Source: an uncultured bacterium
Lineage (GTDB): Bacteria; Zixibacteria; MSB-5A5; CAIYYT01
Direction: 5' to 3'
Length of the DNA stretch: 64,000 bases
NCBI GenBank assembly: GCA_963726455.1
Contig: CAVSCK010000004.1
Coordinates: forward strand, 1,472,001-1,536,000
Part shown: piece after piece, positions 5,086-42,233 of the stretch
Position numbering within the stretch: position 1 is the first letter of the stretch
How the letters are laid out: every line of letters starts with the position of its first letter
The notes under the pieces: generated by a model
Told to the model about the DNA's origin: nothing
Database searches by the model: none
The model's input: only the letters and a program-made list of their open reading frames with translations
Program-made: the position numbers and the translations under genes

Positions 5086-5125
5086 CTATAAGAGTGGTGT
5101 GACTAACGTGAATCCGTCTCTCAAC

Positions 5126-7505: not shown

Positions 7506-7543
7506 AAAAAAATCGCCCGGACCCCCGGCAGAGGGTCCAGGCG
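7506..7543 (-). terminator. Rho-independent terminator for the hybAB-cytochrome operon
   Basis: Stem cgcccggaccc/gggtccaggcg followed on the minus strand by a 7-T run, just past the cytochrome stop. Confidence 0.75.
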
Positions 7544-10927: not shown

Positions 10928-10945
10928 ATGTGAATCTTTTCACAA
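10928..10945. promoter_or_regulatory. Palindromic operator (Rex-type, also fits CRP-family consensus) upstream of hybA
   Basis: ATGTGAA-tctt-TTCACAA, about 50 bp upstream of the hybA start. Confidence 0.7.
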
Positions 10946-11422
10946 AGTCATGTGCCAGCAAGTCACTTTCAGGACTATTTATAGTATATTTCTTTCTGCT
11001 TGTCAAGCACAAATCAATACCCAAACCCTCAAATTTATCCATACAAAACCCAGCTATACTCCATCCAGAAAGTTCTGATCCCGTACCAGTTGATTTCTCA
11101 AGTATTGGCATTGCTAAGTACAAATTTCACAAAAAATTACCTATTACTGTCATTACCGTGAAAATTGCCTCAGGCTCCCGGCACCCATCCTGTCACTCCC
11201 GGCCGGCGCTCCAAATCACACCCACTCGAATCGGCTGCTCCCCCTTGGAAATCCCGATTACTGCTGCTTCCATTATATGTTATCGTCCGTTACCTCGGCT
11301 TCAAGACGCCCAAGTGCATGACTTTCCTGGCCTTCCGGGAGACTCCAACAATTCCTCTCCTATTCCGGAACCGACGCTACCCGTTGCGTACAAATAGAAA
11401 CTGGTTATATTGGCGGCCATCT

Positions 11423-12625
11423 ATGACTCGATACTTTTTCAGAACTGTCTTAATCTCACTCGCTGCTATTCTGATTGCAAGCGGCGTTATGGCAAGTCCC
11501 AAAAAACAATCCAAGCCGGAGCCGGTCCCGTCCCTGGTCGACTCGACTTTGCTGCGATTATTGAACTCCCTGTTCCCCGACAGTGCCGGATATACGGTCG
11601 CCGGCGCGCTCGATCCTCAGCGTCCCGGCAAGACCGACACGGATTTGCTCTTCCAGACCGCCCGAGTTGTCTGTCCCGATTTCGCCTCGCTGCAACGCGC
11701 GATTAGAACCCTCAAGGACAACGAAGAACTCAAGATCAAGAAACTGCGCTACGACCTTGACAAACCCCGTTCCGGCGACCCCGCTGGTTATCGCGGCGTT
11801 ATCGTGACTTTCGGCTGGCAGGATCAGGAGAAAGTCGCCCAGATCCTGACCTTCCAGGAACTTCGCTGGCTGCTCTGGGCGGAAACACTGCTGCCTTATG
11901 ACGCCAAATCCGAATCCAAGTCCAGCCGCGAGTATGCCATCGCCGTCGCAAATTATCTCGATACCGTCGATCACGGCTATACCTCCGTTGACGTTCCCCG
12001 GCCAAAGACCTTCGGCTTGACCGACAAATACGACTTGTTCGCCCCGTTGCCCGATGACTCGATAATTTTTCCTGCCGGCATGACCGAGATTTCGACTCCC
12101 TTTGCCCACGGAATCACTGCCTTTGTGCCGACCGATTCGAGTCTGAACCAATTCAAGTTGCTGGCACCCAATGACACGTTTGTTGACAACGACCCCGCCT
12201 TATTCCAATGGCAGTGCCGCACTTTCTTTTCCGATGGCCACAAACTCTCAGACATCAAAGAACTGACAGCTAAAGATTTTGCCCAACTCGACGCCGGCGA
12301 CTATGCCTTTGCCGTCGGTATGAGCGGCGACATTCACTACGTCAAATACACTCAGCCACACGGCGCTCGCTGGTCACAACAACTTCACGGTCTGCTCTTC
12401 CCGGAAGAACCTATTCTGACCGCCGGCGACTTCGCTATCTCTCGTGATCCCATGCCCTGCATCACGAAGATCAACATCCGCGCGCACCATTTTTCAGGCA
12501 GTGGCCAGCCGCCGACTTCTCTTCGCGCTCTGAGTGACGGTTATCTTACCACGCTCGGACACTTCTTCCAGGCGCTCGACCGGATATTCGTTCATTACCA
12601 CGCCGTTCAGATCAGCAAGTATTGA
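11423..12625 (+). CDS. Exported hypothetical protein with a degenerate RelA/SpoT-like nucleotidyltransferase domain
   Basis: Signal peptide MTRYFFRTVLISLAAILIASGVMA; segment ARVVC...KPRSGDPAGYRGV...AQILTFQELRWLLWAE follows the RelA_SpoT motif order. Confidence 0.55.
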   Translation: MTRYFFRTVLISLAAILIASGVMASPKKQSKPEPVPSLVDSTLLRLLNSLFPDSAGYTVAGALDPQRPGKTDTDLLFQTARVVCPDFASLQRAIRTLKDNEELKIKKLRYDLDKPRSGDPAGYRGVIVTFGWQDQEKVAQILTFQELRWLLWAETLLPYDAKSESKSSREYAIAVANYLDTVDHGYTSVDVPRPKTFGLTDKYDLFAPLPDDSIIFPAGMTEISTPFAHGITAFVPTDSSLNQFKLLAPNDTFVDNDPALFQWQCRTFFSDGHKLSDIKELTAKDFAQLDAGDYAFAVGMSGDIHYVKYTQPHGARWSQQLHGLLFPEEPILTAGDFAISRDPMPCITKINIRAHHFSGSGQPPTSLRALSDGYLTTLGHFFQALDRIFVHYHAVQISKY

Positions 12626-12722
12626 ATCGACTTCTTGAATTCTGTTGGGTTGTCCTGCATTAAGACCTCGCGGTAATTCAGGGGTTTAAACATCCTGATT
12701 CCGCCACCCTCTAAATGCTCGA

Positions 12723-12776
12723 TTATCCATGTTGTTGGGCGAAACTGTCCACATGGTTATGCACATTTGTGGATAT
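12723..12776. promoter_or_regulatory. Cluster of four DnaA-box-like 9-mers
   Basis: TTATCCATG (12723), CTGTCCACA (12745), TTATGCACA (12757), TGTGGATAT (12768, reverse). Confidence 0.45.
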
Positions 12777-12892
12777 CTCTATTGCGCCAAACCACAGCGC
12801 CACAACGTCTTACAAACTGCAATTGCAAAGATTAGTTATTTGTACCTTGCCAACTTGTTAGCCGACAATTCCCTGCGATAAAACTGAGTCCG

Positions 12893-12910
12893 TTGTGAAG
12901 ATTTTCACAT
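12893..12910. promoter_or_regulatory. Rex/CRP-type palindromic operator upstream of hemA
   Basis: TTGTGAA-gatt-TTCACAT. Confidence 0.7.
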
Positions 12911-12914
12911 CTTA

Positions 12915-12930
12915 TGACAATCACGTGACA
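12915..12930 (+). promoter_or_regulatory. HemR-type direct-repeat box (OmpR/PhoB family)
   Basis: TGACA-atcacg-TGACA, a TGACA-N6-TGACA repeat upstream of hemA; the operon encodes an OmpR-family regulator. Confidence 0.7.
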
Positions 12931-12984
12931 ATCGTAATCAACCCACTCCTATTTTCTGGGCAAGTTTATGGAGATCAAACAATC

Positions 12985-14283
12985 GTGAAAGACTTCGGAA
13001 TCATCGGCGTCAACATATCCTCGCAAAACCTTGAACTTCTCGAAAGACTCACTATACCCGCGGAAGAACGTCCCTCTCGGCTGTTCGCACTTAAGACCTT
13101 CGCCGGTTTATCCGGCCTCGTTTATCTCGCCACCTGCAATCGTGTCGAGTTCCTGTTCACCTACAGCGAACCCAACGATCTCACTTCCATCCGCAACAAG
13201 ATGCTCGATCTGTTCTTCCGCGGCGAACAGCATGCGAAGTTTGAGCCGAATGATTTCTATCTCCATAGTGGTCTTGAGGCCGTCACTCACCTGTTCACCG
13301 TCGCATCCGCGCTCGATTCGGTAATGGTTGGTGAAGCGCAGATACTCGGCCAGGTCAAGAACGCTCTCAGTTTCGCACAGGAAAACAACCTGATCGATTC
13401 CGATCTCGATAAGATCTTCCAGGCCGCCTTCCGCGTAGCCAAAAAAGTTCGCTCCGAAACCGACCTCGGTAAAGGCAACGTCTCTGTCGTCGGACTGGTC
13501 ACGGCATTGATTCGCGACTTCATCAAATCCGAAGGGAATGTCCCGGTGGCGCTGTTCGGTGTCGGCGAAATGACCCGCAAAGTTGCCACCTATTTGAAAG
13601 ATCAGGGCATCACGGAAATCTTCTTCGTCAATCGCACCGAGGCCAACACCGAGCCACTTGTACAGCAGTTCGGCGGTCAGGGTATCTCATTAAAGAACTT
13701 CCTCGAAAATCCCTTGCCGGTCAGGATCATTTGCACTGCCACGTCGTCGCCGGCTCCTATTCTCACGGATAGCGAATTCTCCGATATCCTGAACCAAGTG
13801 GAGAATCGCCGTCTGCTTGCAATCGACCTGGCCATACCCCGTGACATCGAAATTTCCGTATCGCTGACCGATGACAATCGTGTTCAGCTTTTCAACATGT
13901 CCGATATCAAGCAGCTTTCCGACACCAATCGCCGCCAGCGTTTCCGGGACGTCGACATCGCCCGCGAAATCATCACGGCTGAGGTTGATCGTTTCCATCA
14001 CGAGGACGTCGAAAGCTCGCTCAAGTCACTTTTTGCCGAATCGCACCGCGAATCGCTCGACCTGGCGCAGAAATGCCTGGATGATCTTTTCGGTAAACAT
14101 CTTCCCAATCTGGACGACAATGATCGTAAGAAGATTGAGTACATGTTAAACAAGGTGGTTAACTTTACCGCCTATCGGCCGGTGCATATGATGGCTAAGA
14201 AAATCACTTCCGAAAAATCAACCAACGCTCATCCTCTTCCTGACAAGTTGCGCCGTTTGCTGAATTCCCCGCAAGGAAACTAA
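12985..14283 (+). CDS. hemA: Glutamyl-tRNA reductase
   Basis: ATCNRVEF, LDSVMVGEAQILGQVK, GVGEM, IDLAIPRDI. GTG start at 12985 chosen because a GGAG RBS lies upstream. Confidence 0.96.
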   Translation: MKDFGIIGVNISSQNLELLERLTIPAEERPSRLFALKTFAGLSGLVYLATCNRVEFLFTYSEPNDLTSIRNKMLDLFFRGEQHAKFEPNDFYLHSGLEAVTHLFTVASALDSVMVGEAQILGQVKNALSFAQENNLIDSDLDKIFQAAFRVAKKVRSETDLGKGNVSVVGLVTALIRDFIKSEGNVPVALFGVGEMTRKVATYLKDQGITEIFFVNRTEANTEPLVQQFGGQGISLKNFLENPLPVRIICTATSSPAPILTDSEFSDILNQVENRRLLAIDLAIPRDIEISVSLTDDNRVQLFNMSDIKQLSDTNRRQRFRDVDIAREIITAEVDRFHHEDVESSLKSLFAESHRESLDLAQKCLDDLFGKHLPNLDDNDRKKIEYMLNKVVNFTAYRPVHMMAKKITSEKSTNAHPLPDKLRRLLNSPQGN

Positions 14284-15221
14284 TGGACAAGCTCGTCATC
14301 GGTTCGCGCGGTTCCGATCTGGCGCTTTGGCAGGCGAACTTCATCAAAGAAAACCTCGCCAAGCATACCGACGTTCCAATTGAAATCAAGATCATCAGGA
14401 CCCAGGGCGACAAGATCGATCACCTTTCCTTTTCCGAGATGGAAGGCAAGGGCTTCTTCACCAAGGAACTGGAGGACGAACTTCTCGCCGGCAGCATCGA
14501 TCTGGCCGTGCACTCACTTAAAGACCTTCAGACAACCATGCCATTCGGACTCACGCTGGGCGCCGTTTGTTTTCGTGAAGACCCCCGCGAACTGGTGCTG
14601 ATCAGGCCCGGAGCCGGCAATTCGACTGCGTTGCTCGGCGTCAAAGAAGACTCCATCGTCGGTACCAGTTCCGTACGCAGGCAATGCCAGGTGGCCAGTC
14701 TTGGCCCTTCGCTCAAGATCAAAGACCTGCGCGGCAATGTGCCGACCCGCATCCGCAAGTTGAGAGAAGGACAATATGATGCCATCATCCTGGCTTATGC
14801 CGGTGTTAAGCGGCTTAATCTTGAACTCTCCGACTTGATGACTTACGCCCTGAACACCTCCCTCTTTCTGCCCGCTCCGGGTCAGGGCATCCTCGGCATC
14901 CAGATTCGCGAGAACGATTCACCTGTGAAATCAATAGTGTCCGCGTTGGATTCCAATGACCTTCGTCAGCAGGTTGCGCTCGAGCGTGGTTTGCTGGCAA
15001 GATTCGCCGGTGGTTGTCAACTGCCGCTCGCCGCCATTTCCGAGATTACACCCGACGGCTACTCTCTTAAGGCAGTCCTGGGCGTTCATAACGGCGCCGT
15101 TTGGGGGGAATTGCGACGAGTCGAATTGACCGGCACTGATATCGAGACCATAGTAGACAGGGCGTACCAATGCCTCAGCGAGCCAAAGCCACGGCAGACC
15201 GACTCAGCCACGCTACGTTAA
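14283..15221 (+). CDS. hemC: Hydroxymethylbilane synthase (porphobilinogen deaminase)
   Basis: GSRGSDLALWQA, GKGFFTKELE, AVHSLKD, GTSSVRR, LRGNVPTR, GGCQLP. Confidence 0.97.
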   Translation: MDKLVIGSRGSDLALWQANFIKENLAKHTDVPIEIKIIRTQGDKIDHLSFSEMEGKGFFTKELEDELLAGSIDLAVHSLKDLQTTMPFGLTLGAVCFREDPRELVLIRPGAGNSTALLGVKEDSIVGTSSVRRQCQVASLGPSLKIKDLRGNVPTRIRKLREGQYDAIILAYAGVKRLNLELSDLMTYALNTSLFLPAPGQGILGIQIRENDSPVKSIVSALDSNDLRQQVALERGLLARFAGGCQLPLAAISEITPDGYSLKAVLGVHNGAVWGELRRVELTGTDIETIVDRAYQCLSEPKPRQTDSATLR

Positions 15222-15931
15222 CCGTTCTGATTTCCCGTCCCGCATCGCAGCTTACGGAATTTCTGCGGGTTGCTTCGGATCGCAAAGTGCGAATCATCCC
15301 TTTTCCGTTAATGAGCATCGAACCGACCATTGATCGTTTCGACACCGCCGAAATTGCCCAGGACTTGGCCGATACATCCTGGCTCCTTTTCACCAGTGCC
15401 AACGCCGTCAGAGTCTACCTTGACTTCCTGCGAAAACACAATATCCCGATTCCTTCAGATATCTCCGTCGGCGTTATCGGCAAGAAGACCGCAGAAATGG
15501 TCGAGCGCTACAGTTTGCAGGTCAACCTCTGTCCCAAAGAGGAAATCGCAGAAGGTCTCCTGCAGGAATTCCTTGATTTACACCTACCTCACGACAAGAT
15601 AATTACCATTCCCGCCGCCGCGGATGTTCGACCAGTGTTGGTGGATGGCCTGCTCCGTGCCGGGTACCATACCAACAGACTTGATATTTATCGCAACGCC
15701 GCAACGCCGGCGCACCTGCTGCCCGTCATCTCCGACGAACAGATTGATTATTTTTGTTTCTTGAGTAGTTCTGCTGTAGAACGTTATAATGAGTTGTTTG
15801 GTCGACCGACCGGCACAGCGGTTTCGATCGGCAAAATCACCACCGCGACCATGAACTCGCTTGGGTGGCTTAACATAATCGAATTGCCGGAACCGGATCT
15901 CAACCGGCTCTGGGAGGTCATTGATGCATAG
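15170..15931 (+). CDS. hemD: Uroporphyrinogen-III synthase (possibly fused to HemC)
   Basis: VLISRP, WLLFTSANAV, VIGKKTA, FLSSSAV, SIGKITT; overlaps hemC by 52 nt. Confidence 0.88.
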   Translation: MPQRAKATADRLSHATLTVLISRPASQLTEFLRVASDRKVRIIPFPLMSIEPTIDRFDTAEIAQDLADTSWLLFTSANAVRVYLDFLRKHNIPIPSDISVGVIGKKTAEMVERYSLQVNLCPKEEIAEGLLQEFLDLHLPHDKIITIPAAADVRPVLVDGLLRAGYHTNRLDIYRNAATPAHLLPVISDEQIDYFCFLSSSAVERYNELFGRPTGTAVSIGKITTATMNSLGWLNIIELPEPDLNRLWEVIDA

Positions 15932-16907
15932 TGTTTATTATAGGCCGCGACGGTTGCGTGTGAATCAACTGATCCGCGATTTGGCTGCGGAAACGCAGCT
16001 CAAACTTAGCGGCATGATTCAGCCCTATTTCGTCTGCGATGGCAAGAATGTCAAAACCGAAATCTCCAGCATGCCGGGTATCTTCCGTGAGTCGGCCGAT
16101 TCGCTGGTCAAATCCATAGCTGCCGACTTGAAGCTGGGCATCAAACGTGTCATGTTGTTCGGTGTGCCCGATATTAAAGACGCCAACGCTTCTTCGGCAC
16201 TCGGCAAAGATGCCGTTGTCAATCGCGCCGTCAAGATGCTCAAGGATAAATTCGGCGAGCAGATTTTTGTCTCTGCTGACGTTTGCCTGTGCGCCTATAC
16301 CGACTCCGGACATTGCGGCATACTGTCGGGGGAACAGATTGACAACGACAAATCCCTGCCGGTGTTGACCCAGATGGCACTCGATTTGGCGCGCGCCGGC
16401 TGTGACTGTGTGGCTCCTTCCGATATGATGGATGGCCGCGTCGCCGCAATTCGCGACGCGCTCGAAGACGAGGGCTTCGTCAACACATTGATACTCGCTT
16501 ACAGTGCCAAGTATGCTTCGGCCTACTATGGTCCGTTCCGCGAAGCGGCTGAGTCTGCGCCGCAACATGGTGACCGCCAGTCTTACCAGATGGACGTTCG
16601 CAATCGTCTGGAGGCTGTCAAGGAAGTTGCGCTCGACATCGAGGAGGGTGCCGACCTGGTCATGGTCAAGCCCGCGCTTGCTTACTTGGACATCATCTCT
16701 GACGTTCGCGCCGCCACCGAATTGCCGGTTGCCGCCTACAACGTCTCCGGTGAATACAGCATGGTCAAACTGATGGTTCAGGCGGGCTATGCCGAGGAAA
16801 AACGTCTGGTGCTGGAAAACCTGACCGCTATCACGCGCGCCGGCGCCGACATCATTCTCACTTACCATCTGCGCGATATCCTCAAGAACGGATGGTTGAA
16901 TGGCTGA
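15924..16907 (+). CDS. hemB: Porphobilinogen synthase (ALA dehydratase), Zn-binding type
   Basis: RPRRLR, DVCLCAYTDSGHCG, APSDMMDGR, MVKPA, AYNVSGEYSM. Confidence 0.97.
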   Translation: MHSVYYRPRRLRVNQLIRDLAAETQLKLSGMIQPYFVCDGKNVKTEISSMPGIFRESADSLVKSIAADLKLGIKRVMLFGVPDIKDANASSALGKDAVVNRAVKMLKDKFGEQIFVSADVCLCAYTDSGHCGILSGEQIDNDKSLPVLTQMALDLARAGCDCVAPSDMMDGRVAAIRDALEDEGFVNTLILAYSAKYASAYYGPFREAAESAPQHGDRQSYQMDVRNRLEAVKEVALDIEEGADLVMVKPALAYLDIISDVRAATELPVAAYNVSGEYSMVKLMVQAGYAEEKRLVLENLTAITRAGADIILTYHLRDILKNGWLNG

Positions 16908-18183
16908 TCAATCCAAATCGCACCACACTTTCTCGCGCGCCCGCAAAGTCATTCCCGGTGGCGTAAGCTCACCCGTCCGCGCCTTCCGTGCAGTTGGCGG
17001 CGAGCCGGTCTTCATGGATCATGGCCGGGGGCCGTACTTGTTCGATCTCGATGGCAATCGCTATCTCGATTTCTGCTGTTCCTGGGGACCATTGATACTC
17101 GGCCACGCGCAGTCCGAAGTCGTCGATACCGTCACGACCGCTGTTGCCGCCGGCATGACGTTTGGCACGGCCACCGCAATCGAAGTTGACCTTGCCGAGA
17201 AAATTATTGAGAAAGTCAAACCCATTGAAATGGTGCGCTTCGTCTCCTCCGGCACCGAAGCCGTGATGTCTGCGGTTCGGTTGGCGCGCGGCTTCACGCA
17301 TCGCGACAAGATCATCAAATTCAACGGCTGCTATCATGGCCACTCCGACTACCTGCTTGTTAAGGCCGGCTCTGGGTTGGTCACCTTCGGGACTCCGTCG
17401 TCAGCAGGCGTGCCCGAGGACTTCGTCAAACATACCCTGGTCGCCGAACTCGACGACGAAAAACATGTGATCGCCTATTTCGATCAATACGGAAAAGACA
17501 TCGCCGCAGTAATCATCGAACCGATACCGGCCAATAACGGCCTGCTCCCGCAGCGCCCTGAATTCCTGCAATTCCTGCGCGACATCACCACCAAACATGG
17601 CGCACTCTTGATCTTCGACGAAGTCATCTCCGGTTTCCGCGTTGGCTGGGGAGGCGCCGCCGAGCTTTACGGCATCACTCCCGATCTCATGACCTTCGGT
17701 AAAGTCATTGGCGGTGGCATGCCGGTCGGCGCGTTCGGTGGTCGGCGCGAAATCATGGAGCAACTGGCACCGCTAGGCGCCGTCTATCAGGCGGGCACGC
17801 TTTCCGGAAATCCTGTCGCGATGGCTGCGGGACTCAAGACCCTGTCAATTCTCGAACGCGACGATTCGTATTCACGCCTTGAATCCCTTGGCTCATCGTT
17901 TGAACGCTCGCTAAAAAACTCCCTCGCCAACCTCCCGGTCTCTGTCTTGCGTGTTGGCTCGATAGTCTGGATCGCGCTGCAACCACAACCGCCGCGCCGT
18001 GCCATCGACATTGAAGACAAGGGCATTGCCATCTACAACGCCATGCATCGCGAAATTCTGGAAGCCGGAATCTATCTGCCGCCTTCCGGCTATGAAGTCC
18101 TGTTTGTCAGCACGGCGCACACCGAAGCGATGCTGACCGACGCCGCCGGAATAATCGCGCGCGGCATCAAGGCACGCCTGTAA
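16900..18183 (+). CDS. hemL: Glutamate-1-semialdehyde 2,1-aminomutase
   Basis: PGGVSSPVRAF, SGTEAVMSAVRLAR, FDEVISGFR, FGKVIGGGMPVGA, YQAGTLSGNP. Confidence 0.97.
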   Translation: MADQSKSHHTFSRARKVIPGGVSSPVRAFRAVGGEPVFMDHGRGPYLFDLDGNRYLDFCCSWGPLILGHAQSEVVDTVTTAVAAGMTFGTATAIEVDLAEKIIEKVKPIEMVRFVSSGTEAVMSAVRLARGFTHRDKIIKFNGCYHGHSDYLLVKAGSGLVTFGTPSSAGVPEDFVKHTLVAELDDEKHVIAYFDQYGKDIAAVIIEPIPANNGLLPQRPEFLQFLRDITTKHGALLIFDEVISGFRVGWGGAAELYGITPDLMTFGKVIGGGMPVGAFGGRREIMEQLAPLGAVYQAGTLSGNPVAMAAGLKTLSILERDDSYSRLESLGSSFERSLKNSLANLPVSVLRVGSIVWIALQPQPPRRAIDIEDKGIAIYNAMHREILEAGIYLPPSGYEVLFVSTAHTEAMLTDAAGIIARGIKARL

Positions 18184-18205
18184 AGCAACGAGCAGTGAGA
18201 CGAAC

Positions 18206-19564
18206 ATGAAATCACTAGCCAGAAGACTCAGGGCGCCCAAAGGAATGGCGCTGGCATTGTTTGTTGCGATCGCGGTCGTGGCCGTCGCTCAGATAAGCTG
18301 GTGGATACTTTTTCAGGTCACAATCTCCCGCGAACAGGAACATCTCTATCGCCAGGTCGCGCAGACTTCCGCCAATCTCACGACTACCATGCTCAATCAA
18401 TGTTATGACCGCCTGGTCTCGCACGCTACGGTCATTGCATCCGACGACAACCCGCAGCACGTCAAGCGCTCATTCGATCAGCTATTGAATGATCCCGCCG
18501 TCAACGGCTACCTCATCAGCGATTCCTCCGGACAGACGATTGCCCGGGGCGGCGTGCTTGATTCATCACTCTATCTGCCGATTGCAGGCCAAGATCCGGT
18601 CGTTCTCTATCTCAATAGCCGCTATCCGATCGCGCAGATCGCCGGTGTCGCGCCGAATCTGACATTTCAGGATAACGGCAAACGCGGTGTCTACACTTCG
18701 CCCTGGTTTGATTCCAGTATGTTCGTCCTCAAGCCCGAAGTGTTGGCGACCGTCCAGAACAAGGCGTTTCATCGCATTGTCATGTTTGCCGCCGAGGGTT
18801 CCTTCTTCGTCCTCCTGACTTTGCTCGGCGCGTTTATGATCTACCGCACGCTTCGGCAAACCGAGGAACTCAAACAGCAGCAGGAAAATTTCATCCATGC
18901 CGTAACGCATGAATTCAAGATCCCCGTGGCGTCGATCAAGCTCTATTTGGAGACAATGTCCTCGCAGAAAATCGACAAGGACAAGTATCAGACCTTCATC
19001 CCGCGCATGCTCGAAGACTGCCAGCGCCTCGAACGCCTGGTCGACAACGTCCTTGAAGCCGGTCGTCTGAGTCGTCATAGTCACCATCTCAAACTGGCGC
19101 CGGCAAATCTGTCCGCCGACATCGAGGAATATCTCGAAGAGTTGCGGCCGCTTATCGAACGCAGCCACCTGAAACTGTCTGTTAATATCGAATCCGACCT
19201 GAACGTCCGCTCCGACTACCAGGCCATGCGTCGCGTCGTCTCGGCTTTGGTCGACAACGCCATCAAGTACTCGCCGGAAAATCGCCGCGAACTTACCATC
19301 ACTGCGAAACGCGTCGGTCATAAATGCCGCCTGACCTTCGCCGACCGTGGCGTCGGAATCGCTCGCGAAGAACAGGACAACATCTTCAATCGCTTCTATC
19401 GCACGGGCACCGAAAACACCCGCACCGTGAAAGGAACCGGATTGGGATTGTTCCTTGTTAAAGAGATTGTGACCGAGCATGATGGCGCCGTGGAGGTAAA
19501 ATCCGACGGCCTTGATCAGGGCAGCACGTTCGTGATCACTCTTCCATTGGAGAAAAGGTCATGA
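18206..19564 (+). CDS. Membrane sensor histidine kinase (Leptospira HemK/Hklep-like position)
   Basis: Two TM helices around a periplasmic domain; H-box VTHEFKIP, N-box LVDNAIKYS, G boxes DRGVG and GTGLGL. Confidence 0.92.
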   Translation: MKSLARRLRAPKGMALALFVAIAVVAVAQISWWILFQVTISREQEHLYRQVAQTSANLTTTMLNQCYDRLVSHATVIASDDNPQHVKRSFDQLLNDPAVNGYLISDSSGQTIARGGVLDSSLYLPIAGQDPVVLYLNSRYPIAQIAGVAPNLTFQDNGKRGVYTSPWFDSSMFVLKPEVLATVQNKAFHRIVMFAAEGSFFVLLTLLGAFMIYRTLRQTEELKQQQENFIHAVTHEFKIPVASIKLYLETMSSQKIDKDKYQTFIPRMLEDCQRLERLVDNVLEAGRLSRHSHHLKLAPANLSADIEEYLEELRPLIERSHLKLSVNIESDLNVRSDYQAMRRVVSALVDNAIKYSPENRRELTITAKRVGHKCRLTFADRGVGIAREEQDNIFNRFYRTGTENTRTVKGTGLGLFLVKEIVTEHDGAVEVKSDGLDQGSTFVITLPLEKRS

Positions 19565-20277
19565 GCAAACGCATTCTTGTCGTCGAGGACGAAGAACATA
19601 TCGCCGACGGGCTGGCTATGAATCTCGAAGCCGAGGGCTACGAAGTCGTGGTCTGCGGCGACGGCAACGCTGCGCTCGATTACTACCGGAAAGGTTTTCT
19701 CGACTTGATCATTCTCGACATCATGATTCCCGGCAAGGACGGCCTCGCCGTCTGCCGCGAAATCCGGCAGAGTGGCGGACGCGTTCCGATTCTCTTTCTC
19801 ACGGCGCGTGACCGGCAGTCCGATCGCGTCGAGGGTTTCCTGACCGGCGGCGACGACTACATGACCAAACCGTTCGATTTGCAGGAACTGCTTCTGCGCG
19901 TAGCTGCCATCTTCCGTCGGCAGGTCTGGTACGGCACCGTCGAACGCGAGGAATCGCGCTACGACTGGCACGAGAATTGGATAAATTTCAAAAGCTATCT
20001 CGCGCACGGTCCCGGAGGTGAGGTCGAATTATCTCAGAAGGAATGCATGACCATGAAATTCCTGGTCGAGCATCACGACGAGGTCGTCTCTCGCGACATG
20101 ATTCTCGACGCCGTCTGGGGCTACCATGTCTACCCATCGAGCCGCACGATTGACAACTTCATCGTACGACTGCGCAAAATATTCGAGCCCGATCCTACCG
20201 TGCCGCGATACATCCATACCCTGCGCGGTGTCGGCTACAAATTCACACCCGGCGGAGAGACCGATGCCTCATTATAA
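19561..20277 (+). CDS. OmpR/PhoB-family response regulator (HemR-like)
   Basis: VVEDE, LDIMIP, TA, KPF receiver motifs; winged-helix RTIDNFIVRLRK...HTLRGVGY. Confidence 0.93.
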   Translation: MSKRILVVEDEEHIADGLAMNLEAEGYEVVVCGDGNAALDYYRKGFLDLIILDIMIPGKDGLAVCREIRQSGGRVPILFLTARDRQSDRVEGFLTGGDDYMTKPFDLQELLLRVAAIFRRQVWYGTVEREESRYDWHENWINFKSYLAHGPGGEVELSQKECMTMKFLVEHHDEVVSRDMILDAVWGYHVYPSSRTIDNFIVRLRKIFEPDPTVPRYIHTLRGVGYKFTPGGETDASL

Positions 20278-21286
20278 TTTCATCGCCGCTGCGCTGCGGC
20301 AACCGCACGAGACCGTGCCCATTTGGGTCATGCGCCAGGCCGGCCGATACTTGCCCGAGTACCGCGCCGTTCGCAGTCGGGCGTCGTTTCTCGATCTGTG
20401 CCATCAGCCCGACTTGATGACCGAAGTCTCCCTGCAACCGATCGACATTTTCGGCTTTGACGCCGCAATCTTCTTTTCCGACATCCTGATTCCTTTGGCG
20501 CCGCTCGGCATTTCGGTCACTTTCCCGAACGGCCCGCCGCGACTCGAACCGCCGTTACGCAGTCCTGCCGACATCGACAAATTGAAACCGTACGATATCA
20601 AGTCCGAGCTTTCGTTTGCACTCGCCGGGATCCGGCAAATTCGCACCAAACTTGATGGACGCGTGCCGTTGATCGGTTTCTGCGGATCACCTTTCACGCT
20701 CCTCTGTTACCTTGTCGAGGGTGGCGGCTCGAAAGATTTCACCGAGACCAAGAAGTTCATCTTCACGTATCCTGATGCTGCCACGCGATTGTTGACCCTT
20801 CTCGCTGATCTGGTCGGCGAATATCTCTCGCATCAGATTGCGGCCGGTGCGCAGGCAGTTCAGGTATTCGACACCTGGGGCGGAATATTGTCGCCGGCTG
20901 ATTACCGCCGCTTCAGTCTGCCCTTTGTGCAACGCGTTTTCGATCGCTGCCACACCAAAGGCGTGCCGCGCATCCTGTATCTGGGCAATACGGCCTGCTA
21001 TCTCAATCTGCTCGCCGATCTCCACTGCGAAGTGATTTCGATTGACTGGCGCACTGACTTGACGGCGGCAAAAGCTGCACTGCCCAACCAGGCAATCCAG
21101 GGCAATCTTGATCCCAACATTCTCTTCGCTCCAACGTCAGTAGTTATTGACGAGGCCCGTCGTATTCTTGAGATTATGCGCGACCGCGACGGCTTTATTT
21201 TCAACCTTGGCCACGGCATCTTACCGCAAACACCGGTTGACAACGTACATGCGCTGGTGGATACGGTTCACTCATTTCGGAGATAA
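20264..21286 (+). CDS. hemE: Uroporphyrinogen decarboxylase
   Basis: PIWVMRQAGRYLPEYR, FSDIL, QGNLDP, FNLGHG; ATG at 20264 after GGAGAG. Confidence 0.97.
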   Translation: MPHYNFIAAALRQPHETVPIWVMRQAGRYLPEYRAVRSRASFLDLCHQPDLMTEVSLQPIDIFGFDAAIFFSDILIPLAPLGISVTFPNGPPRLEPPLRSPADIDKLKPYDIKSELSFALAGIRQIRTKLDGRVPLIGFCGSPFTLLCYLVEGGGSKDFTETKKFIFTYPDAATRLLTLLADLVGEYLSHQIAAGAQAVQVFDTWGGILSPADYRRFSLPFVQRVFDRCHTKGVPRILYLGNTACYLNLLADLHCEVISIDWRTDLTAAKAALPNQAIQGNLDPNILFAPTSVVIDEARRILEIMRDRDGFIFNLGHGILPQTPVDNVHALVDTVHSFRR

Positions 21287-21288
21287 TC

Positions 21289-22674
21289 ATGAAGGAATTG
21301 AATTCTACTTTCGAACTTCTGAAAAAATACGATAAGCCCGGTCCGCGCTATACTTCCTATCCCACGGCTCCCGAATTTCGGCATGACTTCACCACTGTTG
21401 ATTATACCGATGCTCTCACCCGTGCCGGCAAGAACGTCGATTCACCTCTTTCACTGTATGTTCACATTCCTTTTTGCGCCCAGCGCTGCCACTTCTGCGG
21501 TTGCACGACTGTCATTACGCACAGCGAAGAATCCGTCAACAAATATCTCGCCGCTCTCGATATCGAACTGACAAACATCAGCAAGCATCTCGGATCGCGC
21601 CGGCAATTACTGCAACTCCATTGGGGCGGCGGCACGCCGACTCATTTGAATGTAGCGCAAATCGAGCAACTCTTCCGTCAAATCACCGATCGCTTTTCGA
21701 TTCTTCCCGATGCCGAGGTTGCCATCGAGGTTGACCCGCGCGTTACGTCCGATCAGCAAATCGAAAAACTCCGCGCTCTCGGCTTCAATCGCCTCAGCAT
21801 GGGAATTCAGGACTTCACCAAAGTCGTGCAGGCCGCTATCGGTCGCTGGCAGACTTTGAACCAGAGTGAGGCGCTCTATCGTTCCTGCCGCGCCCTCGGC
21901 TATCGCGGCCTCAATATGGATTTGATCTACGGCCTGCCGAAACAGACAGTCCCTGATTTTGCGCGATCTATTGACCATGTCATCCGCATGCGTCCCGACC
22001 GAGTGGCCGTTTACAGCTATGCCTATTTACCGGCACAGCGCTCCAATCAGAAATTGATCAGCCCGTCCTGGCTGCCGACTCTCGAGGACAAATTCCGGCT
22101 CTTCGCCACGGCCGTCGACAAATTCCTGGACGCCGGCTACATCCAAATCGGCATGGACCATTTTGCCTTGCCTGACGACGAATTGGCGATCGCCCTGTCA
22201 CAGCAGACGTTGCACCGCAATTTCATGGGTTATACCACTAAACCCGCTGCTGACATGATCGGCCTTGGCATGTCCGCCATCGGTGACCTCGCCGCCTGCT
22301 ATGCACAGAATATTTCGCGCATCGGCTCTTATCATGCCGCCATCGAGGAGAAAGGCCTCGCGACCTACCGTGGCTATCACCTTTCGCAGGATGATCTCAT
22401 CCGCCGCCGCCTGATTACATTCCTCATGTGCAATTTCATTCTGCCGTTCGATTTGATTAAGCGCGAATTTGGCGTCGACTACTTCGAGTATTTCCGCGCC
22501 GAGGATGCCCAACTCGACCAGTTCATCACCGACGGTTTGCTGCTGCGGCGTCCCGATGCTCTCGAAATTACTCCCGCAGGGCGCATCTTCATTCGCAATA
22601 TCGCGATGGTCTTCGATGCCTATCTGCATCGCGCGGACAAACCGGGACAGCACACTTTCTCGCGCACGATCTGA
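21289..22674 (+). CDS. hemN: Oxygen-independent coproporphyrinogen III oxidase (radical SAM)
   Basis: GPRYTSYPTA, HIPFCAQRCHFCGC, HWGGGTP, IGMDHFA, HRNFMGY, C-terminal FSRTI. Confidence 0.97.
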   Translation: MKELNSTFELLKKYDKPGPRYTSYPTAPEFRHDFTTVDYTDALTRAGKNVDSPLSLYVHIPFCAQRCHFCGCTTVITHSEESVNKYLAALDIELTNISKHLGSRRQLLQLHWGGGTPTHLNVAQIEQLFRQITDRFSILPDAEVAIEVDPRVTSDQQIEKLRALGFNRLSMGIQDFTKVVQAAIGRWQTLNQSEALYRSCRALGYRGLNMDLIYGLPKQTVPDFARSIDHVIRMRPDRVAVYSYAYLPAQRSNQKLISPSWLPTLEDKFRLFATAVDKFLDAGYIQIGMDHFALPDDELAIALSQQTLHRNFMGYTTKPAADMIGLGMSAIGDLAACYAQNISRIGSYHAAIEEKGLATYRGYHLSQDDLIRRRLITFLMCNFILPFDLIKREFGVDYFEYFRAEDAQLDQFITDGLLLRRPDALEITPAGRIFIRNIAMVFDAYLHRADKPGQHTFSRTI

Positions 22675-22678
22675 GATA

Positions 22679-23703
22679 ATGGCTACCGCGCTCGAACGAA
22701 TTCAGGCAGTCACCGGGAACAGACCGCAGTTCGATCCGGCGCGGGAAATCTGGGGTGTGCTGTTCGTCAATATGGGTGGCCCCGAAAAAACGGAAGAGAT
22801 CAGACCCTATCTTTACAACATCTTCTCCGACCGCGCGGTTATTAACTTCCCGTTGGCGCCTCTCTTGCAGAAGCCAATGGCTCGTCTGATCTCGACACTT
22901 TCGCGCAAAAAGAGTCGCTGCACGTTACAATCTGATTGGCGGCGGTTCACCCCTGTTGAGTTATGATCGCAAGCTGGCTGACGGCGTTAAGCAAATCCTG
23001 ATACGCGAATTCTGCAACATCCGAGTCTATGTCGGCATGCGCTATATCGCAGCCCTTCATCGAAAGCCAGCTACAAGCAGCAATTTCCGATGGTTGCATG
23101 CACCTGCTGGTATTTCCCATGTATCCGCAATACTGTCTGGCAACCACCGGCACCGCTTTCGACGCCATCACTCGCTACCTTGCCGATCATTCGAGAGCAT
23201 TGTCGCTCGATGCAATACCTGACTATTATGAATCTGCCGGATACATTGCATTACTGCGCAAACGTATTGAGCAGGCATTCGCTAGGACACAAGCTGGCTC
23301 GAAAACACGTCTATTGTTCTCTGCTCATTCAGTCCCTGAAAGTATCCGCGCGGGCGGTGATCCTTACGTCAACCAGGTAACTCACACTTGCGATCTCGCC
23401 GGACGCGGTTATGATTATATGCTTTCCTTTCAATCAGCGACCGGCCCGGTGAAATGGGTCGGACCCGACACCTTGCAAACAATCGACAAGCTCGCCATCG
23501 AGGGTATCGAGCAACTCATAGTCGTACCGGTCAGCTTTGTGTCGGACAACATTGAGACGCTTTACGACATCGATATTGTCATGCAGGAACGTTGCCGTCA
23601 ACTTGGAATGAAACCGCTGATCCGCACCACCATGTTCAATGGCGAACCCGACTTCGCCGAATTCATCGCCGGCCTTGTCCGCGAGAGGATACGCACCACA
23701 TGA
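22679..23703 (+). CDS. hemH: Ferrochelatase, split by two +1 frameshifts (~22900, ~23046)
   Basis: NMGGP, RYNLIGGGSPL, GMRY, PMYPQY, LFSAHSVP, GDPY, FQS, FVSDNIETLYDID are spread over three successive frames. Confidence 0.9.
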
Positions 23704-25097
23704 CTGTCGATCACGAGACTCCGCGTATTGCGATCATCGGTGGCGGCATTTCCGGTTTGGCGTCGCTGCACTTTCTCAAACGCAAGCTTGGTGGACGCGC
23801 ACGGATTCGCCTGTTCGAGGCAGACTCACGGCTGGGCGGTACCATCGGCTCCGACCGCGTTGATGGTTATGTCTGTGACTGGGGGCCTAACGGCTTTCTC
23901 GATCGTGTCCCCTTGACTTTGCAGCTTGTCGATGAAATCGGCCTGCGGGACAAACTTCGTCCCGCTGATCCCCAGGCCGATAATCGTTTCATTTACCGGC
24001 ATGGCCGTCTGCATGCCATCAGCGCTTCCCCGATCAAGTTCATGACATCGCGGTTGCTGTCATTGCCAGGACGGTTGCGTGTGACGATGGAACCTTTGAT
24101 CAAAGCCAGACGCGACGGCGCCGACGAATCCGTGTTTGATTTTGCCGCGCGGCGTATCGGTCGCGAAGCCGCCGAGGCCATGATCGATCCCATGGTCTCC
24201 GGCATCTTCGGTGGTGATGCCAAAGCCGTTTCGCTCAAATCCTGTTTCCCTGTAATGGAGGAAATGGAACGCAATTACGGCTCCCTCTTCAAAGCGATGA
24301 TCGCCAAAAAGAAGTCAGGCAAGAACGCCGGACCTGCCGGACCTTCGGGACGGCTGACCTCGTTCAACAACGGTCTCTTTACGCTTGTCGAGCGCTTCTA
24401 CGAACTATACTCTGAACACATTCAGACCGGCACTCCGACCACAAATATCACTCGAACGCCCACCGGATATCATCTCGAATTTGGCAACGGCAGTTCCGAC
24501 ACCTTTGACGGCGTGATTATCGCAACCCCGGCCTATGTTGCCGCACATTTGTTGAAACGCTCTGATGAATCGGTCTCCGATCTGCTCAGCCAAATTCCCT
24601 ATGCGTCACTTGCCGTCTGTTGCTTCGGTTATCGCGACGACAAACGCGCGCAGGAACTCGATGGCTTCGGATTTCTTGTTCCCCGTAACGAGGGCAAACG
24701 AATTCTCGGCTCGATCTGGACATCGTCGATCTTCCGCGATCAGGCGCCAACCGGAGAAGTTCTGCTGCGCACAATGGTCGGCGGCTACACCGACCCCGAT
24801 GCCGTGCATCTTGACGACAAGGATCTGATCGCATTAGTTCACGGCGAGCTTAGCCAGATACTCGGCCTGCAAACGCAACCTGCCTTTGTGCGAATCTTTC
24901 GCTATGACAAGGGTATCCCCCAATTCATTCTGGGCCACAATGACCGGCTCCGGCAAATCGCGACACGCCTCGAATCTCTCCCCGGAATCTATCTTGCCAG
25001 CAATGCCTATTCCGGCATCGGCCTGAACGATTGCGTCACCCGCGCCGATGAAGTCACCACCGCTCTCGTTCAGCATCTCGCCTGCCCGAAGACCTAA
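23700..25097 (+). CDS. hemY: FAD-dependent protoporphyrinogen oxidase (HemY type)
   Basis: IIGGGISGL, RLGGTI, GPNGF, DGFGFLVP, IPQF, GIGLNDC; ATGA overlap with the hemH stop. Confidence 0.95.
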   Translation: MTVDHETPRIAIIGGGISGLASLHFLKRKLGGRARIRLFEADSRLGGTIGSDRVDGYVCDWGPNGFLDRVPLTLQLVDEIGLRDKLRPADPQADNRFIYRHGRLHAISASPIKFMTSRLLSLPGRLRVTMEPLIKARRDGADESVFDFAARRIGREAAEAMIDPMVSGIFGGDAKAVSLKSCFPVMEEMERNYGSLFKAMIAKKKSGKNAGPAGPSGRLTSFNNGLFTLVERFYELYSEHIQTGTPTTNITRTPTGYHLEFGNGSSDTFDGVIIATPAYVAAHLLKRSDESVSDLLSQIPYASLAVCCFGYRDDKRAQELDGFGFLVPRNEGKRILGSIWTSSIFRDQAPTGEVLLRTMVGGYTDPDAVHLDDKDLIALVHGELSQILGLQTQPAFVRIFRYDKGIPQFILGHNDRLRQIATRLESLPGIYLASNAYSGIGLNDCVTRADEVTTALVQHLACPKT

Positions 25098-25178
25098 TCC
25101 GCAGCGCTTCTCCTCGTCCAAATTTCATACACCTGTGCCCTCTTATCACTTCAGCCACCCCTGACGATATATCTTAAC

Positions 25179-26003
25179 GTGCATAACAGGGTACTCCTCT
25201 ATTCTGCAGCGGCAGTGGCATTCGTGGCACTGCTCTTTCTTGGCGCCGGCCTGGGCAACAGCATTGCCTTCACCAACTTAAATCATCCCCACCGCTCTGT
25301 CGGCTGCAAGAATTGCCACGGGTTTCAAACGCGAGAGGCCGCCTCGGATTCGCTTCAAGGTCAGAAACCGGCCGCGACCGCCCAATGCCTTGAATGCCAT
25401 GCCACCGACCTGCAAAAACCCGGTTTCGCGCAGCTTTTCCACCAGCGTGGCGAGGATTGTGAACGCTGCCACAGCTTCCACAATCCGCAAGTGCTTGTGA
25501 TAAATGGAGACTCCACCGACATCGAGGTAGCCACAGCCGAGCTCTACCAATGTAGTGACTGCCACCAGACTACCACTCTCCCCGAAGTTAGTGCGGGACA
25601 TCAGGAAGCGGCGAAACTTCTGCACGGTGACACCAGGGGATTATTCCGCACCGATCCCAGCGCCTTCTGCCTGGCCTGCCACGATTACGGTGCCGTTCCG
25701 CAGGTTACGTCGAATTTAAGGCCTCCCCAGTTGCACATGGAGGCCAGTCATCCTTACGACATCAGGATCATCCCCGGCTATCGGCGCGCTGGGTCCTCCC
25801 TGAAACTGCAGGATCAGCTTGACCCAATGTACCGGCTGGTCGACGAGAAAATGACCTGTATCACCTGCCATTCCCTGGCCTCAACTAATGCCCAACTTGT
25901 GGTGGCCACAATCGACAAAGGCCTCTGCACCGGTTGCCATGATATGCAGCGTCCCGATGGCTCCTTCGCCGCCCTGTCTCTTCACAAGCAGGTCAATAAC
26001 TAG
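25179..26003 (+). CDS. 7-heme cytochrome c with N-terminal signal or anchor
   Basis: CKNCH, CLECH, CERCH, CSDCH, CLACH, CITCH, CTGCH. Confidence 0.88.
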   Translation: MHNRVLLYSAAAVAFVALLFLGAGLGNSIAFTNLNHPHRSVGCKNCHGFQTREAASDSLQGQKPAATAQCLECHATDLQKPGFAQLFHQRGEDCERCHSFHNPQVLVINGDSTDIEVATAELYQCSDCHQTTTLPEVSAGHQEAAKLLHGDTRGLFRTDPSAFCLACHDYGAVPQVTSNLRPPQLHMEASHPYDIRIIPGYRRAGSSLKLQDQLDPMYRLVDEKMTCITCHSLASTNAQLVVATIDKGLCTGCHDMQRPDGSFAALSLHKQVNN

Positions 26004-26363
26004 TTTCCTAAGCGACCACCACCAACCCAAACTTTCCTGCCATCTGCTAACCTTAGTGAATTGAGGCACAAATCTCTCGGGACCCATGTCCGCCGGCGAC
26101 ATCATCAGGTCGGACTTCGGTTTCCCGTAAAGCACTGTGGAAAGGCCACTAAACCTGTTCGTTTTCCAGCCAATTGGACTCAAAAAAGATTCGGAAAGAT
26201 TTAATTTTCCCTTGCCTTTTTGGTATTTCACCTATATCTTGCGGCGTGCTAGGAGATACCGGTTTTTACTTTGAACGGCACATCGAGTCGCATAAACACT
26301 GGGAATTACTTCACGTTAGTGAATATTAGCTAACTTCGGACTCGAAGAAATTGAAATGTTAAT

Positions 26364-26381
26364 TTGTGAAAAAAATCACAT
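26364..26381. promoter_or_regulatory. Rex/CRP-type operator 1 upstream of the nanowire cluster
   Basis: TTGTGAA-aaaa-ATCACAT. Confidence 0.62.
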
Positions 26382-26459
26382 GAATACCGGCGAAATCCAA
26401 GCTTTCTCCCTTGGTTATTTCCATTTTGCCTTGGCCGACGGATTTTTTTCCACCTCAAT

Positions 26460-26477
26460 ATGTGAAAAGCTTCACAT
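26460..26477. promoter_or_regulatory. Rex/CRP-type operator 2 upstream of the nanowire cluster
   Basis: ATGTGAA-aagc-TTCACAT, perfect inverted arms, about 25 bp before the NHL gene. Confidence 0.7.
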
Positions 26478-41591: not shown

Positions 41592-42233
41592 TTTTGTAGG
41601 TCGAAACACTTTGTGAAAATTGGTCTGACCCACAAATCCGTTTCCGGGGGTTTCGACATTTCTGTATTGCTCCACTACAACCGCCAACCTACTCTCAAAA
41701 CATTCCCCTGTTCCGGCACCCCCTGCGCCGCGCCTAACCTCTTGTCTTCGAGTGTTTCATCTCCGCGCGGCGTGCGACCTGCCGGCCTTCCGCAAAAATA
41801 TTCTCACTTTTCTTCTCCCTCGATTCACACTCATTTTCGGCTTTTTACACGTCTCTTTGCTTCCATCTTGCATCTCTCCAACCACTTACCCGCTGTCGCC
41901 AGCACTAAAAAGCATAAATCTCAAAACCCTATATAAGTAGAACGCAGGTTGCGGCACCGAAGGTCACCCCGGAGGGCTTTGTGGGTCTGGTGATTAGCGG
42001 CTGAGCAAAATGGGAGTTTTGTGAATCAACCTTCTACCGATCAGGAATCCCCGATGGCAACACGGTTACGACTAAGCTATCCATGCCGAACTCTAACCGT
42101 GTCGTCCCGGGCATACTCGTCCTCCGCCGTGGTGAGTGAGTCTGTCGCTGTAAACCTTGTGGTTCGCGCTGTCGGATACCCGCCGTCCAACCGACACGCT
42201 TTGATGTGGAATGGTGCTCTCTCTGGGATGAAG

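What the first reader, a model, noticed from the sequence alone, without database searches (positions are those of the whole stretch)
10928..26477. One operator links the quinol module, heme supply and nanowire into a putative redox regulon
Seen: four 18-bp palindromes, WTGTGAA-N4-WTCACAW, at 10928 (hybA), 12893 (hemA), 26364 and 26460 (nanowire operon). I saw no full match in other intergenic regions. Known: Rex, an NADH/NAD+ sensor, binds TTGTGAA-N4-TTCACAA; CRP-family proteins bind the nested TGTGA-N6-TCACA. Inference: a 30-kb locus co-induces electron exit from the quinone pool, heme synthesis for 68 heme sites and the wire when NADH accumulates. No rex or cytochrome c maturation genes are in the window.
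Basis: partly seen in the sequence, partly recalled or inferred. Interest (0 to 1): 0.75.

Follow-up and report, generated by a model that had tools for sequence, protein, structure and literature searches.

The report
Rex-type operators on Zixibacteria cytochrome island
An uncultured Zixibacteria bacterium carries the same short DNA switch in front of three neighbouring gene sets (a membrane electron-transfer module, heme synthesis and a possible conductive-wire export system), most likely so that a known NADH-sensing repressor turns them on together; the parts are known, but we found no report of them wired this way.

Summary
Four exact WTGTGAA-N4-WTCACAW sites lie at the stated coordinates, all intergenic, with none in shuffles. 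The 68 CxxCH motifs are confirmed. The host is a Zixibacteria. The hemA site is conserved (17/18) in the one close relative retrieved, whose four-fold sites are only 43% identical.

Rex (~0.65) is the likelier binder than a CRP-family protein (~0.2). A follows TGTGA in 7/8 half-sites against 10/34 in E. coli CRP-like sites, and two boxes can only lie in transcribed leaders. However, the hemA box sits at about -61, the classical CRP position, and no rex gene could be checked.

A Leptospira-type hem-box (TGACA-N6-TGACA) lies 4 nt from the hemA palindrome and matches a two-component pair inside the hem operon. It precedes hemA in 3/3 related loci from three phyla.

'Nanowire' is unproven: the gene is OmcS-like (TM 0.73) in an osc-type cluster, but only OmcS itself is known to polymerise. 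The direction of flow through the NrfD module is unknown. Verdict: a real small regulon built from known regulator types in a new combination.

The parts
7574..8719 (-). 13-heme class III (c3-type) periplasmic cytochrome, HmcA/nine-heme-like; last gene of the hyb/hmc unit, hairpin terminator at 7514-7543
8730..9986 (-). NrfD-family membrane subunit (HybB/HmcC-like)
   Evidence: PF03916; HybB 1.9e-103 and HmcC 7.6e-89, both below curated cut-off
9973..10881 (-). 4Fe-4S protein with twin-arginine-like N-terminus (HmcB/HybA-like)
   Evidence: HmcB 1.8e-96, HybA 1.2e-73, below cut-off; sequence
10928..10945 (.). Operator 1 (Rex-type), about +27..+44 from the inferred start site, 46 nt before the hybA ATG
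10978..11006 (-). sigma70-type promoter TTGACA-17-TATAAA (11 of 12, joint best in the window)
   Evidence: missed, which requires T at the last -10 position
12893..12910 (.). Operator 2 (Rex-type), centred about -60.5; conserved 17/18 in L001
12915..12930 (+). hem-box direct repeat TGACA-N6-TGACA (HemR-type), about -47..-32; the only exact one in the window
12950..12955 (+). inferred -10 hexamer of hemA (TATTTT here, TATAAT at the aligned place in L001)
   Evidence: inference
12985..18183 (+). hemA, hemC, hemD, hemB, hemL
18206..20277 (+). HisKA sensor kinase and OmpR-family response regulator inside the hem operon (HemKR-like)
20264..25097 (+). hemE, hemN, hemH (two frameshifts, about 22880 and 23040), hemY/hemG
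25179..26003 (+). 7-heme cytochrome c
26212..26240 (+). candidate promoter TTGCCT-17-TATCTT of the omc/osc unit (8 of 12; uncertain)
26364..26381 (.). Operator 3 (Rex-type, one TGTGAT half)
26460..26477 (.). Operator 4 (Rex-type), 24 nt before the ATG, 96 nt from operator 3
26502..27629 (+). secreted NHL/six-bladed beta-propeller protein
27674..28741 (+). OmcS-like hexaheme cytochrome
   Evidence: phmmer to 6EF8 E 1e-36; model pLDDT 77.5, Foldseek E 4e-16, TMq 0.73, 29% identity
28855..34351 (+). osc-type block: putative outer-membrane barrel, two CsgG/LpoB-like proteins, SurA/PpiC foldase
   Evidence: barrel assignment is a weak lead, score 0.77
34383..37604 (+). 26-heme cytochrome (17+9 CxxCH, about 665 codons, split by a frameshift near 35690) and 16-heme cytochrome
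   Evidence: GSU2495 is ~70 kDa with 26 hemes (PMC12977616)

Best explanation
The four 18-bp sites are real operators of one dimeric regulator, most likely the NADH/NAD+ sensor Rex, encoded elsewhere in the genome. When NADH is low, Rex sits in the leader of the HmcB/HmcC-like module, on two or three sites in the leader of the OmcS-like/osc unit, and directly beside the activator site of the hem operon. When NADH builds up because electron acceptors run short, Rex leaves the DNA and the three units are de-repressed together. hemA has a second input: the response regulator encoded inside the operon probably activates it from the TGACA-N6-TGACA hem-box, under heme-precursor feedback as Leptospira HemKR does. 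Rex 4 nt upstream would act as an anti-activator, so the promoter would need both an NADH surplus and a heme shortage. Shown: sites, chance level, conservation at hemA, gene content, co-occurrence of the hem-box with the two-component pair. Inferred: identity of both binders, start sites, sign of control, outward electron flow, filament formation.
For: Chance excluded. hemA box 17/18 identical and box plus hem-box 32/38 identical in L001, against 114/267 for the upstream intergenic DNA and 279/648 at four-fold codon sites. The sites differ by 1-2 mismatches from the Rex consensus TTGTGAANNNNTTCACAA (consensus in PMC5355995, PMC5317091) and resemble validated S. avermitilis sites such as ATGTGAACGCGTTCACAA. 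A follows TGTGA in 7/8 half-sites against 10/34 in 17 motif-defined E. coli CRP-like sites (Fisher p 0.004; A at both inner positions in 3/4 against 1/17). That A (Ade8) is contacted by a conserved Rex lysine (PMC8836258). Box 1 lies downstream of an 11/12 promoter and box 4 ends 24 nt before an ATG, so neither leaves room for a -41.5 or -61.5 activator geometry. Precedents: Rex represses hem operons in Streptomyces; Rex-like motifs precede three multiheme cytochrome genes in Calderihabitans (prediction); Caldithrix has Rex with a near-identical predicted site. Hem-box: directly upstream of hemA in 3 of the 3 GTDB loci that contain hemA (L001, L043, L067); all 5 exact copies in 1.31 Mb lie in loci whose regulator shares the PS[ST]RT[IV]DNF helix.
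Against: No rex gene in the window or in the 80 fetched loci, and the rest of the genome could not be read. The hemA box is centred at -60.5/-61.5, the class I CRP position used at Shewanella omcA and mtrC. One E. coli site upstream of preT differs from box 1 only at its two end bases. The omc boxes are far (+118, +214) from the best candidate promoter, which is unusual for a repressor. Conservation could be tested for hemA only, in one relative. L001 lacks the hyb/hmc module beside hemA, and its contig ends before the omc unit. The total hem-box count (5) is only modestly above shuffles (0-3); its strength is positional.
Confidence: 0.65

Rival explanations
1. A CRP/FNR-family dimer recognising TGTGA-N6-TCACA binds the sites. 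It activates hemA from -61.5 (and perhaps the omc unit from box 3, with a weak CATTTT -10 at 26422) and represses from the downstream boxes. The signal would be cAMP, a gas or a redox cofactor, not NADH.
For: Perfect 10/10 CRP core in 4 of 4 sites. hemA box centred -60.5 here and -61.5 in L001. CRP activates Shewanella omcA and mtrC from -61.5/-60.5 (PMC4417206). A near-identical site occurs upstream of E. coli preT.
Against: Inner A bias (7/8 against 10/34). Outer flanks are less A/T-rich than in the E. coli set (5/8 and 3/8 against 27/34 and 29/34). Boxes 1 and 4 cannot be activator sites. The -61 position follows from abutting the hem-box, where a bound protein could equally block the activator. 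The E. coli set speaks only for E. coli CRP, not for other family members.
Confidence: 0.2
2. An uncharacterised, lineage-specific regulator has converged on the same palindrome, or the in-operon response regulator binds both motifs.
For: Neither rex nor crp was seen. Zixibacteria regulators are unstudied: no paper among the 20 listed of 557 mentioned Zixibacteria.
Against: The motif equals the widely conserved Rex consensus. The response regulator is better explained by the direct repeat, which occurs without the palindrome in L043 and L067.
Confidence: 0.11
3. The sites are chance matches or relics, and the three units are not co-regulated.
For: The motif was defined after seeing the sites. 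hemH and the 26-heme gene are frameshifted, which could mean decay.
Against: The plain core finds the same four intergenic sites. Score gap of 23 against 13 bits. A 19-nt identical run covers the box in L001. The frameshifts are more simply assembly errors (inference).
Confidence: 0.04

Closest known systems
Rex regulon (Streptomyces rex-hemACD, cyd, nuo; Staphylococcus; Desulfovibrio; Thermotoga)
   Same: Operator sequence and length; sites over or downstream of promoters; heme synthesis and respiratory modules as targets (PMC5355995, passages).
   Different: rex is not linked to hemA here; targets include an OmcS-like/osc export cluster; the hemA site abuts a two-component activator box; no paper on Rex in this phylum was found.
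Predicted Rex control of multiheme cytochromes in Calderihabitans maritimus
   Same: Rex-like motifs upstream of extracellular multiheme cytochrome genes (PMC7306483, passages).
   Different: A Clostridia-type thermophile with scattered mhc genes; no hem operon, OmcS or osc cluster is mentioned in the passages read.
CRP control of Shewanella omcA-mtrCAB
   Same: Same TGTGA-N6-TCACA core, extracellular electron transfer targets, -61.5 position (PMC4417206, passages).
   Different: The Shewanella sites are degenerate activator sites; here the cores are perfect, A-biased, and two lie in transcribed leaders.
Leptospira HemKR / hem-box
   Same: Exact TGACA-N6-TGACA upstream of hemA; OmpR-family regulator with a HisKA kinase (PMC11426443 and its preprint, passages).
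   Different: Found here in Zixibacteria, and in Gammaproteobacteria, Bdellovibrionota and Bacteroidota loci; orthology to HemK/HemR was not tested directly; a Rex-type box lies beside it.
Geobacter omcS / osc cluster (GSU2505-GSU2493)
   Same: OmcS-fold hexaheme followed by barrel-like, CsgG-like, foldase and large multiheme genes, including a 26-heme one.
   Different: One hexaheme only, 332 against 407 residues, 29% identity; six downstream genes against eight; resembles the genomes with a lone GSU2501-like gene, whose wire formation is unknown.
Desulfovibrio Hmc / Nhc complexes and E. coli HybAB
   Same: NrfD subunit plus 4Fe-4S subunit plus c3-type multiheme cytochrome.
   Different: No HmcD/E/F and no hydrogenase in the unit; 13 hemes; all scores below the curated cut-offs; gene content closest to Nhc, which serves H2 use (PMC4215793).

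Membership tests
Rex operator | 18-bp TTGTGAA-N4-TTCACAA palindrome with at most 2 mismatches | tested here: met
   1, 1, 2, 2 mismatches; 2 in L001
Rex operator | A after TGTGA (base contacted by the Rex lysine) | tested here: met
   7/8 half-sites, 9/10 with L001
Rex operator | Position over or downstream of the promoter | tested here: inconclusive
   Boxes 1 and 4 lie in leaders; box 2 at about -61; box 3 unclear; start sites inferred only
Rex operator | rex gene present in the genome | not testable with these tools
   Absent from the window and from 80 loci; the rest of the genome was not available
Rex operator | Rex binding released by NADH | not testable with these tools
   needs EMSA
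CRP-family site | TGTGA-N6-TCACA core | tested here: met
   4 of 4 perfect
CRP-family site | Activator geometry (-41.5 or -61.5) | tested here: inconclusive
   Met at hemA, impossible for boxes 1 and 4
CRP-family site | E. coli-like base use inside and outside the core | tested here: not met
   A bias p 0.004, flanks less A/T-rich; the control set is motif-defined, from 350 kb chosen for catabolic genes
HemKR system | hem-box upstream of hemA | tested here: met
   window, L001, L043, L067
HemKR system | HisKA kinase plus OmpR-family regulator tied to hem genes | tested here: met
HemKR system | Orthology to Leptospira HemK/HemR | tested here: inconclusive
   No entry named HemR among the 46 PDB hits at E<=1e-20; third Atlas cluster mostly Spirochaetota but unnamed; no Leptospira sequence at hand
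HemKR system | ALA/porphyrin-triggered dephosphorylation | not testable with these tools
   experiment needed
OmcS nanowire | Hexaheme OmcS fold with conserved heme ligands | tested here: met
   six CxxCH; cysteines and histidines invariant in 84 sequences; TMq 0.73 to 6EF8
OmcS nanowire | True OmcS rather than an OmcT/OmcJ/GSU2501-type paralogue | not tested
   paralogue sequences not available; 29% identity, 75 residues shorter
OmcS nanowire | Polymerises into a conductive filament | not testable with these tools
   only OmcS is known to
Hmc complex | HmcA-F with a 16-heme subunit | tested here: not met
   three genes, 13 hemes, HmcB and HmcC scores below cut-off

The most novel reading that the evidence does not exclude
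In Zixibacteria the cytoplasmic NADH/NAD+ ratio directly gates a complete extracellular electron-transfer chain (quinol-oxidising NrfD module, OmcS-type wire with its export machinery, and heme supply) through Rex. At hemA, Rex works as an anti-activator of a HemR-type regulator that the searches here found described only in Leptospira but that appears to occur in at least four other phyla.
Probability: 0.3. Interest if true: 0.72.

Novelty: new variant of a known kind. Interest (0 to 1): 0.48.

Why it matters
If Rex is the binder, wire and heme production in a common uncultured subsurface phylum would respond directly to electron surplus. That differs from the CRP control of Shewanella and the two-component and c-di-GMP control described for Geobacter. 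It would also give indirect evidence on direction: the cluster would serve to dispose of electrons, not to take them up. The operator is a genome-wide probe for Zixibacteria electron sinks. The hem-box finding extends a heme-precursor-sensing circuit well beyond Leptospira and is easy to test. The individual regulators and targets all have precedents, so this is a new wiring, not a new kind of system.

Tried and rejected
Conservation of the hyb and omc boxes therefore stayed untested. L001 has a TonB-receptor-like gene where the hyb module lies here.

2. Rex peptide-motif scans (motifs recalled) of the 80 loci and the window found nothing. With no Rex sequence at hand, no search for a Zixibacteria Rex was possible.

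3. The built-in promoter scan found nothing above chance and missed the hyb promoter because of its last-T rule. My looser scan is also only a consensus match.

4. Rfam found no RNA family in the window, so no known riboswitch explains the leaders.

5. The OmcS-like protein has no match in the plasmid collection. The NrfD subunit has no PDB sequence match.

6. Ravcheev 2012 (Rex regulons) and Shen 2025 (osc cluster) were not held; they are cited only through papers that quote them.

7. Accession-level confirmation of the hem-omc linkage could not be made. The linkage rests on shared contig lengths and one pair of locus tags.

8. Rejected: hemA starting at GTG 12895 inside the box. Rejected: the in-operon response regulator as binder of the palindrome, because L043 and L067 have the regulator and the hem-box but no palindrome.

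9. No complex prediction was run; metagenome and viral collections were not searched; no supplements were read.
Full report
OBSERVATION. The pattern WTGTGAANNNNWTCACAW matches exactly four places (10928, 12893, 26364, 26460), with none in 100 dinucleotide shuffles of the window. Using 20 intergenic stretches that I delimited (6841 nt), 0 of 2000 shuffles reached four, for this motif or for the plain TGTGA-N6-TCACA core. The core has 5 exact hits in the window: the four and one inside hamA. A matrix from the sites scores them 23-29 bits against 13.4 for the next site; a weak fifth candidate (9.8 bits) lies at 26299 in the omc leader. The CxxCH total is 68. No rex, crp/fnr or ccm gene was seen among the 50 distinct ORFs scanned.

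HOST AND ANATOMY. Named top hits of HemA and of the kinase are nearly all Zixibacteria, and Zixibacteria are the commonest name among the hexaheme's hits. Three units carry the sites. (a) On the minus strand, a 4Fe-4S protein, an NrfD-type membrane protein and a 13-heme c3-type cytochrome; the best models are HmcB/HybA and HybB/HmcC, all below cut-off. The gene content resembles the reduced Nhc form, which serves H2 use, whereas Hmc is thought to send electrons outward (PMC4215793, passages). The direction is therefore open. (b) hemA-C-D-B-L, a HisKA kinase and an OmpR-family regulator, then hemE-N-H-Y and a 7-heme cytochrome. hemA starts at 12985, not inside the box. (c) An NHL propeller, an OmcS-like hexaheme, a barrel-like protein (weak lead), two CsgG-like proteins, a foldase, a 26-heme and a 16-heme cytochrome. 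The hexaheme matches only OmcS in the PDB (E 1e-36), and its model (pLDDT 77.5) superposes on 6EF8 (E 4e-16, TMq 0.73, 29% identity). The layout resembles the Geobacter osc operon (PMC13194489, passages), and GSU2495 has 26 hemes. [quoted passage not shown] 'Nanowire' is thus a hypothesis. hemH (two shifts) and the 26-heme gene (one shift) are frameshifted; assembly error is my inference.

CONSERVATION. There the hemA box is kept at 17/18, 72 nt before the start (74 nt here), inside a 19-nt identical run. Box plus the next 20 nt are 32/38 identical, against 114/267 for the upstream intergenic DNA and 279/648 at four-fold codon sites. L001 lacks the hyb module next to hemA and ends before the omc unit, so three of the four sites have no comparative test. 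Linkage of hem and omc genes recurs indirectly. Eight of 31 kinase orthologue clusters on contigs of 10 kb or more share a contig length with one of 44 such hexaheme hits (only the top 120 of 1997 hits were listed). In HGW-Zixibacteria-1 the locus tags are CVT49_00595 and CVT49_00645.

WHO BINDS. For Rex: the sites are 1-2 mismatches from the consensus and resemble footprinted S. avermitilis operators, which lie from -50 to +25 and include rex-hemA (PMC5355995, passages). Caldithrix has Rex and a near-identical predicted site (PMC5317091, passages; that it is a related phylum is recalled). The A after TGTGA is contacted by a conserved Rex lysine (PMC8836258, passages). As a control I took 350 kb of E. 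coli K-12, chosen for catabolic operons. It holds 17 non-ORF core matches with at most one mismatch, 1.85 expected; these are motif-defined, not validated. A follows TGTGA in 10 of 34 half-sites there against 7 of 8 here (p 0.004), and both inner positions are A in 1 of 17 against 3 of 4. Box 1 lies at about +27..+44 behind TTGACA-17-TATAAA, and box 4 ends 24 nt before an ATG; neither leaves room for an activator geometry. Against Rex: no rex was found in what I could read. The hemA box is centred at -60.5 (L001 -61.5) from the inferred start, exactly where CRP activates Shewanella omcA and mtrC (PMC4417206, passages). One E. coli site before preT differs from box 1 only at its two end bases. 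The omc boxes are +118 and +214 from the best promoter candidate. I put Rex at 0.65, a CRP-family protein at 0.2, another regulator at 0.11 and chance at 0.04.

A SECOND OPERATOR. Four nucleotides after the hemA palindrome is TGACA-N6-TGACA (12915-12930), the only exact copy in the window. It is the hem-box bound by phospho-HemR of Leptospira, which activates hemA and is shut off by ALA (PMC11426443 and preprint, passages). It lies directly upstream of hemA in all 3 fetched loci that contain hemA: L001, L043 (Gammaproteobacteria) and L067 (Bdellovibrionales). Each has the kinase-regulator pair after hemL, and a -10-like hexamer follows 19-21 nt later. The other two exact copies in 1.31 Mb lie just after the regulator gene in two Bacteroidota loci. 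All five loci share the regulator's recognition-helix motif; shuffles gave 0-3 copies in total. L043 and L067 have no palindrome, so the two signals are separable. Orthology to HemK/HemR was not established. The two searches for HemR and the hem-box (12 of 12 and 20 of 38 listed) showed only Leptospira papers on this system, judged from the listings.

MECHANISM. Most likely Rex represses all three units at low NADH and releases them when acceptors are limiting, while a HemR-type activator adds heme-precursor feedback at hemA. A repressor bound 4 nt from the activator site would block activation. Sites, conservation and gene content are shown; binders, start sites, sign, electron direction and filament formation are inferred.

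NOVELTY. Rex on hem operons is established. Rex-like motifs before multiheme cytochromes have been predicted in Calderihabitans (PMC7306483, passages). CRP control of extracellular electron transfer is established. In the listings I saw no paper linking Rex to an OmcS/osc cluster or describing regulons in Zixibacteria; subscription papers, including the primary Rex and osc papers, were not available. PMC7531388, PMC10954620 and PMC3495685 were read as passages for context. This is a new variant of known kinds: interest 0.48, and 0.72 if the Rex-gated wire and the anti-activation at hemA are confirmed (probability about 0.3).

Noticed in passing
window 12915-12930; L001 4711; L043 3969; L067 4664; L009 11507; L020 7567: Leptospira-type hem-box with a HemKR-like pair in Zixibacteria, Gammaproteobacteria, Bdellovibrionota and Bacteroidota. 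The pair also follows hemL in Gemmatimonadales L028 and Saprospiraceae L044, where hemA is outside the contig.
   Followed up: partly
window 18206-19564: The Zixibacteria kinase has an extracytoplasmic insertion of about 120-150 residues that shorter relatives (about 290-335 aa) lack; about 65 full-length relatives.
   Followed up: no
window 22679-23703 and 34383-36378: hemH has two frameshifts and the 26-heme cytochrome one; probably assembly errors.
   Followed up: partly
window 26299-26333: Weak fifth operator-like site (9.8 bits) overlapping an inverted TTCAC-N4-GTGAA arrangement; a possible extended -10 (TGnTAATTT, 26357-26365) overlaps operator 3. Operators 3 and 4 are 96 nt (9.1 turns) apart, which would allow looping.
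   Followed up: partly
window 11423-12625: 400-aa secreted-looking protein with no Pfam or NCBIfam match, kept upstream of hemA in L001 (52% identity).
   Followed up: no
window 37988-41591: Hachiman anti-phage system (HamA, HamB) of lower GC right after the cytochrome cluster.
   Followed up: partly
window 42200-43280 and 47380-47810: REP-like palindromic repeats (80-nt period) and an exact 156-nt tandem duplication.
   Followed up: no
window 1-7437: Bacterial alpha-2-macroglobulin followed by PBP1C, the usual pair.
   Followed up: no
window 55149-59269: Three genes without Pfam match; by eye possibly a sigma-like protein, a zinc-finger anti-sigma-like protein and a large membrane protein with three short repeats.
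   Followed up: no
window 27674-28741: The OmcS-like family is large (1997 hits among 7994 candidates) and more than 60% identical across Zixibacteria, Acidobacteriota, Gemmatimonadota and Eisenbacteria.
   Followed up: partly
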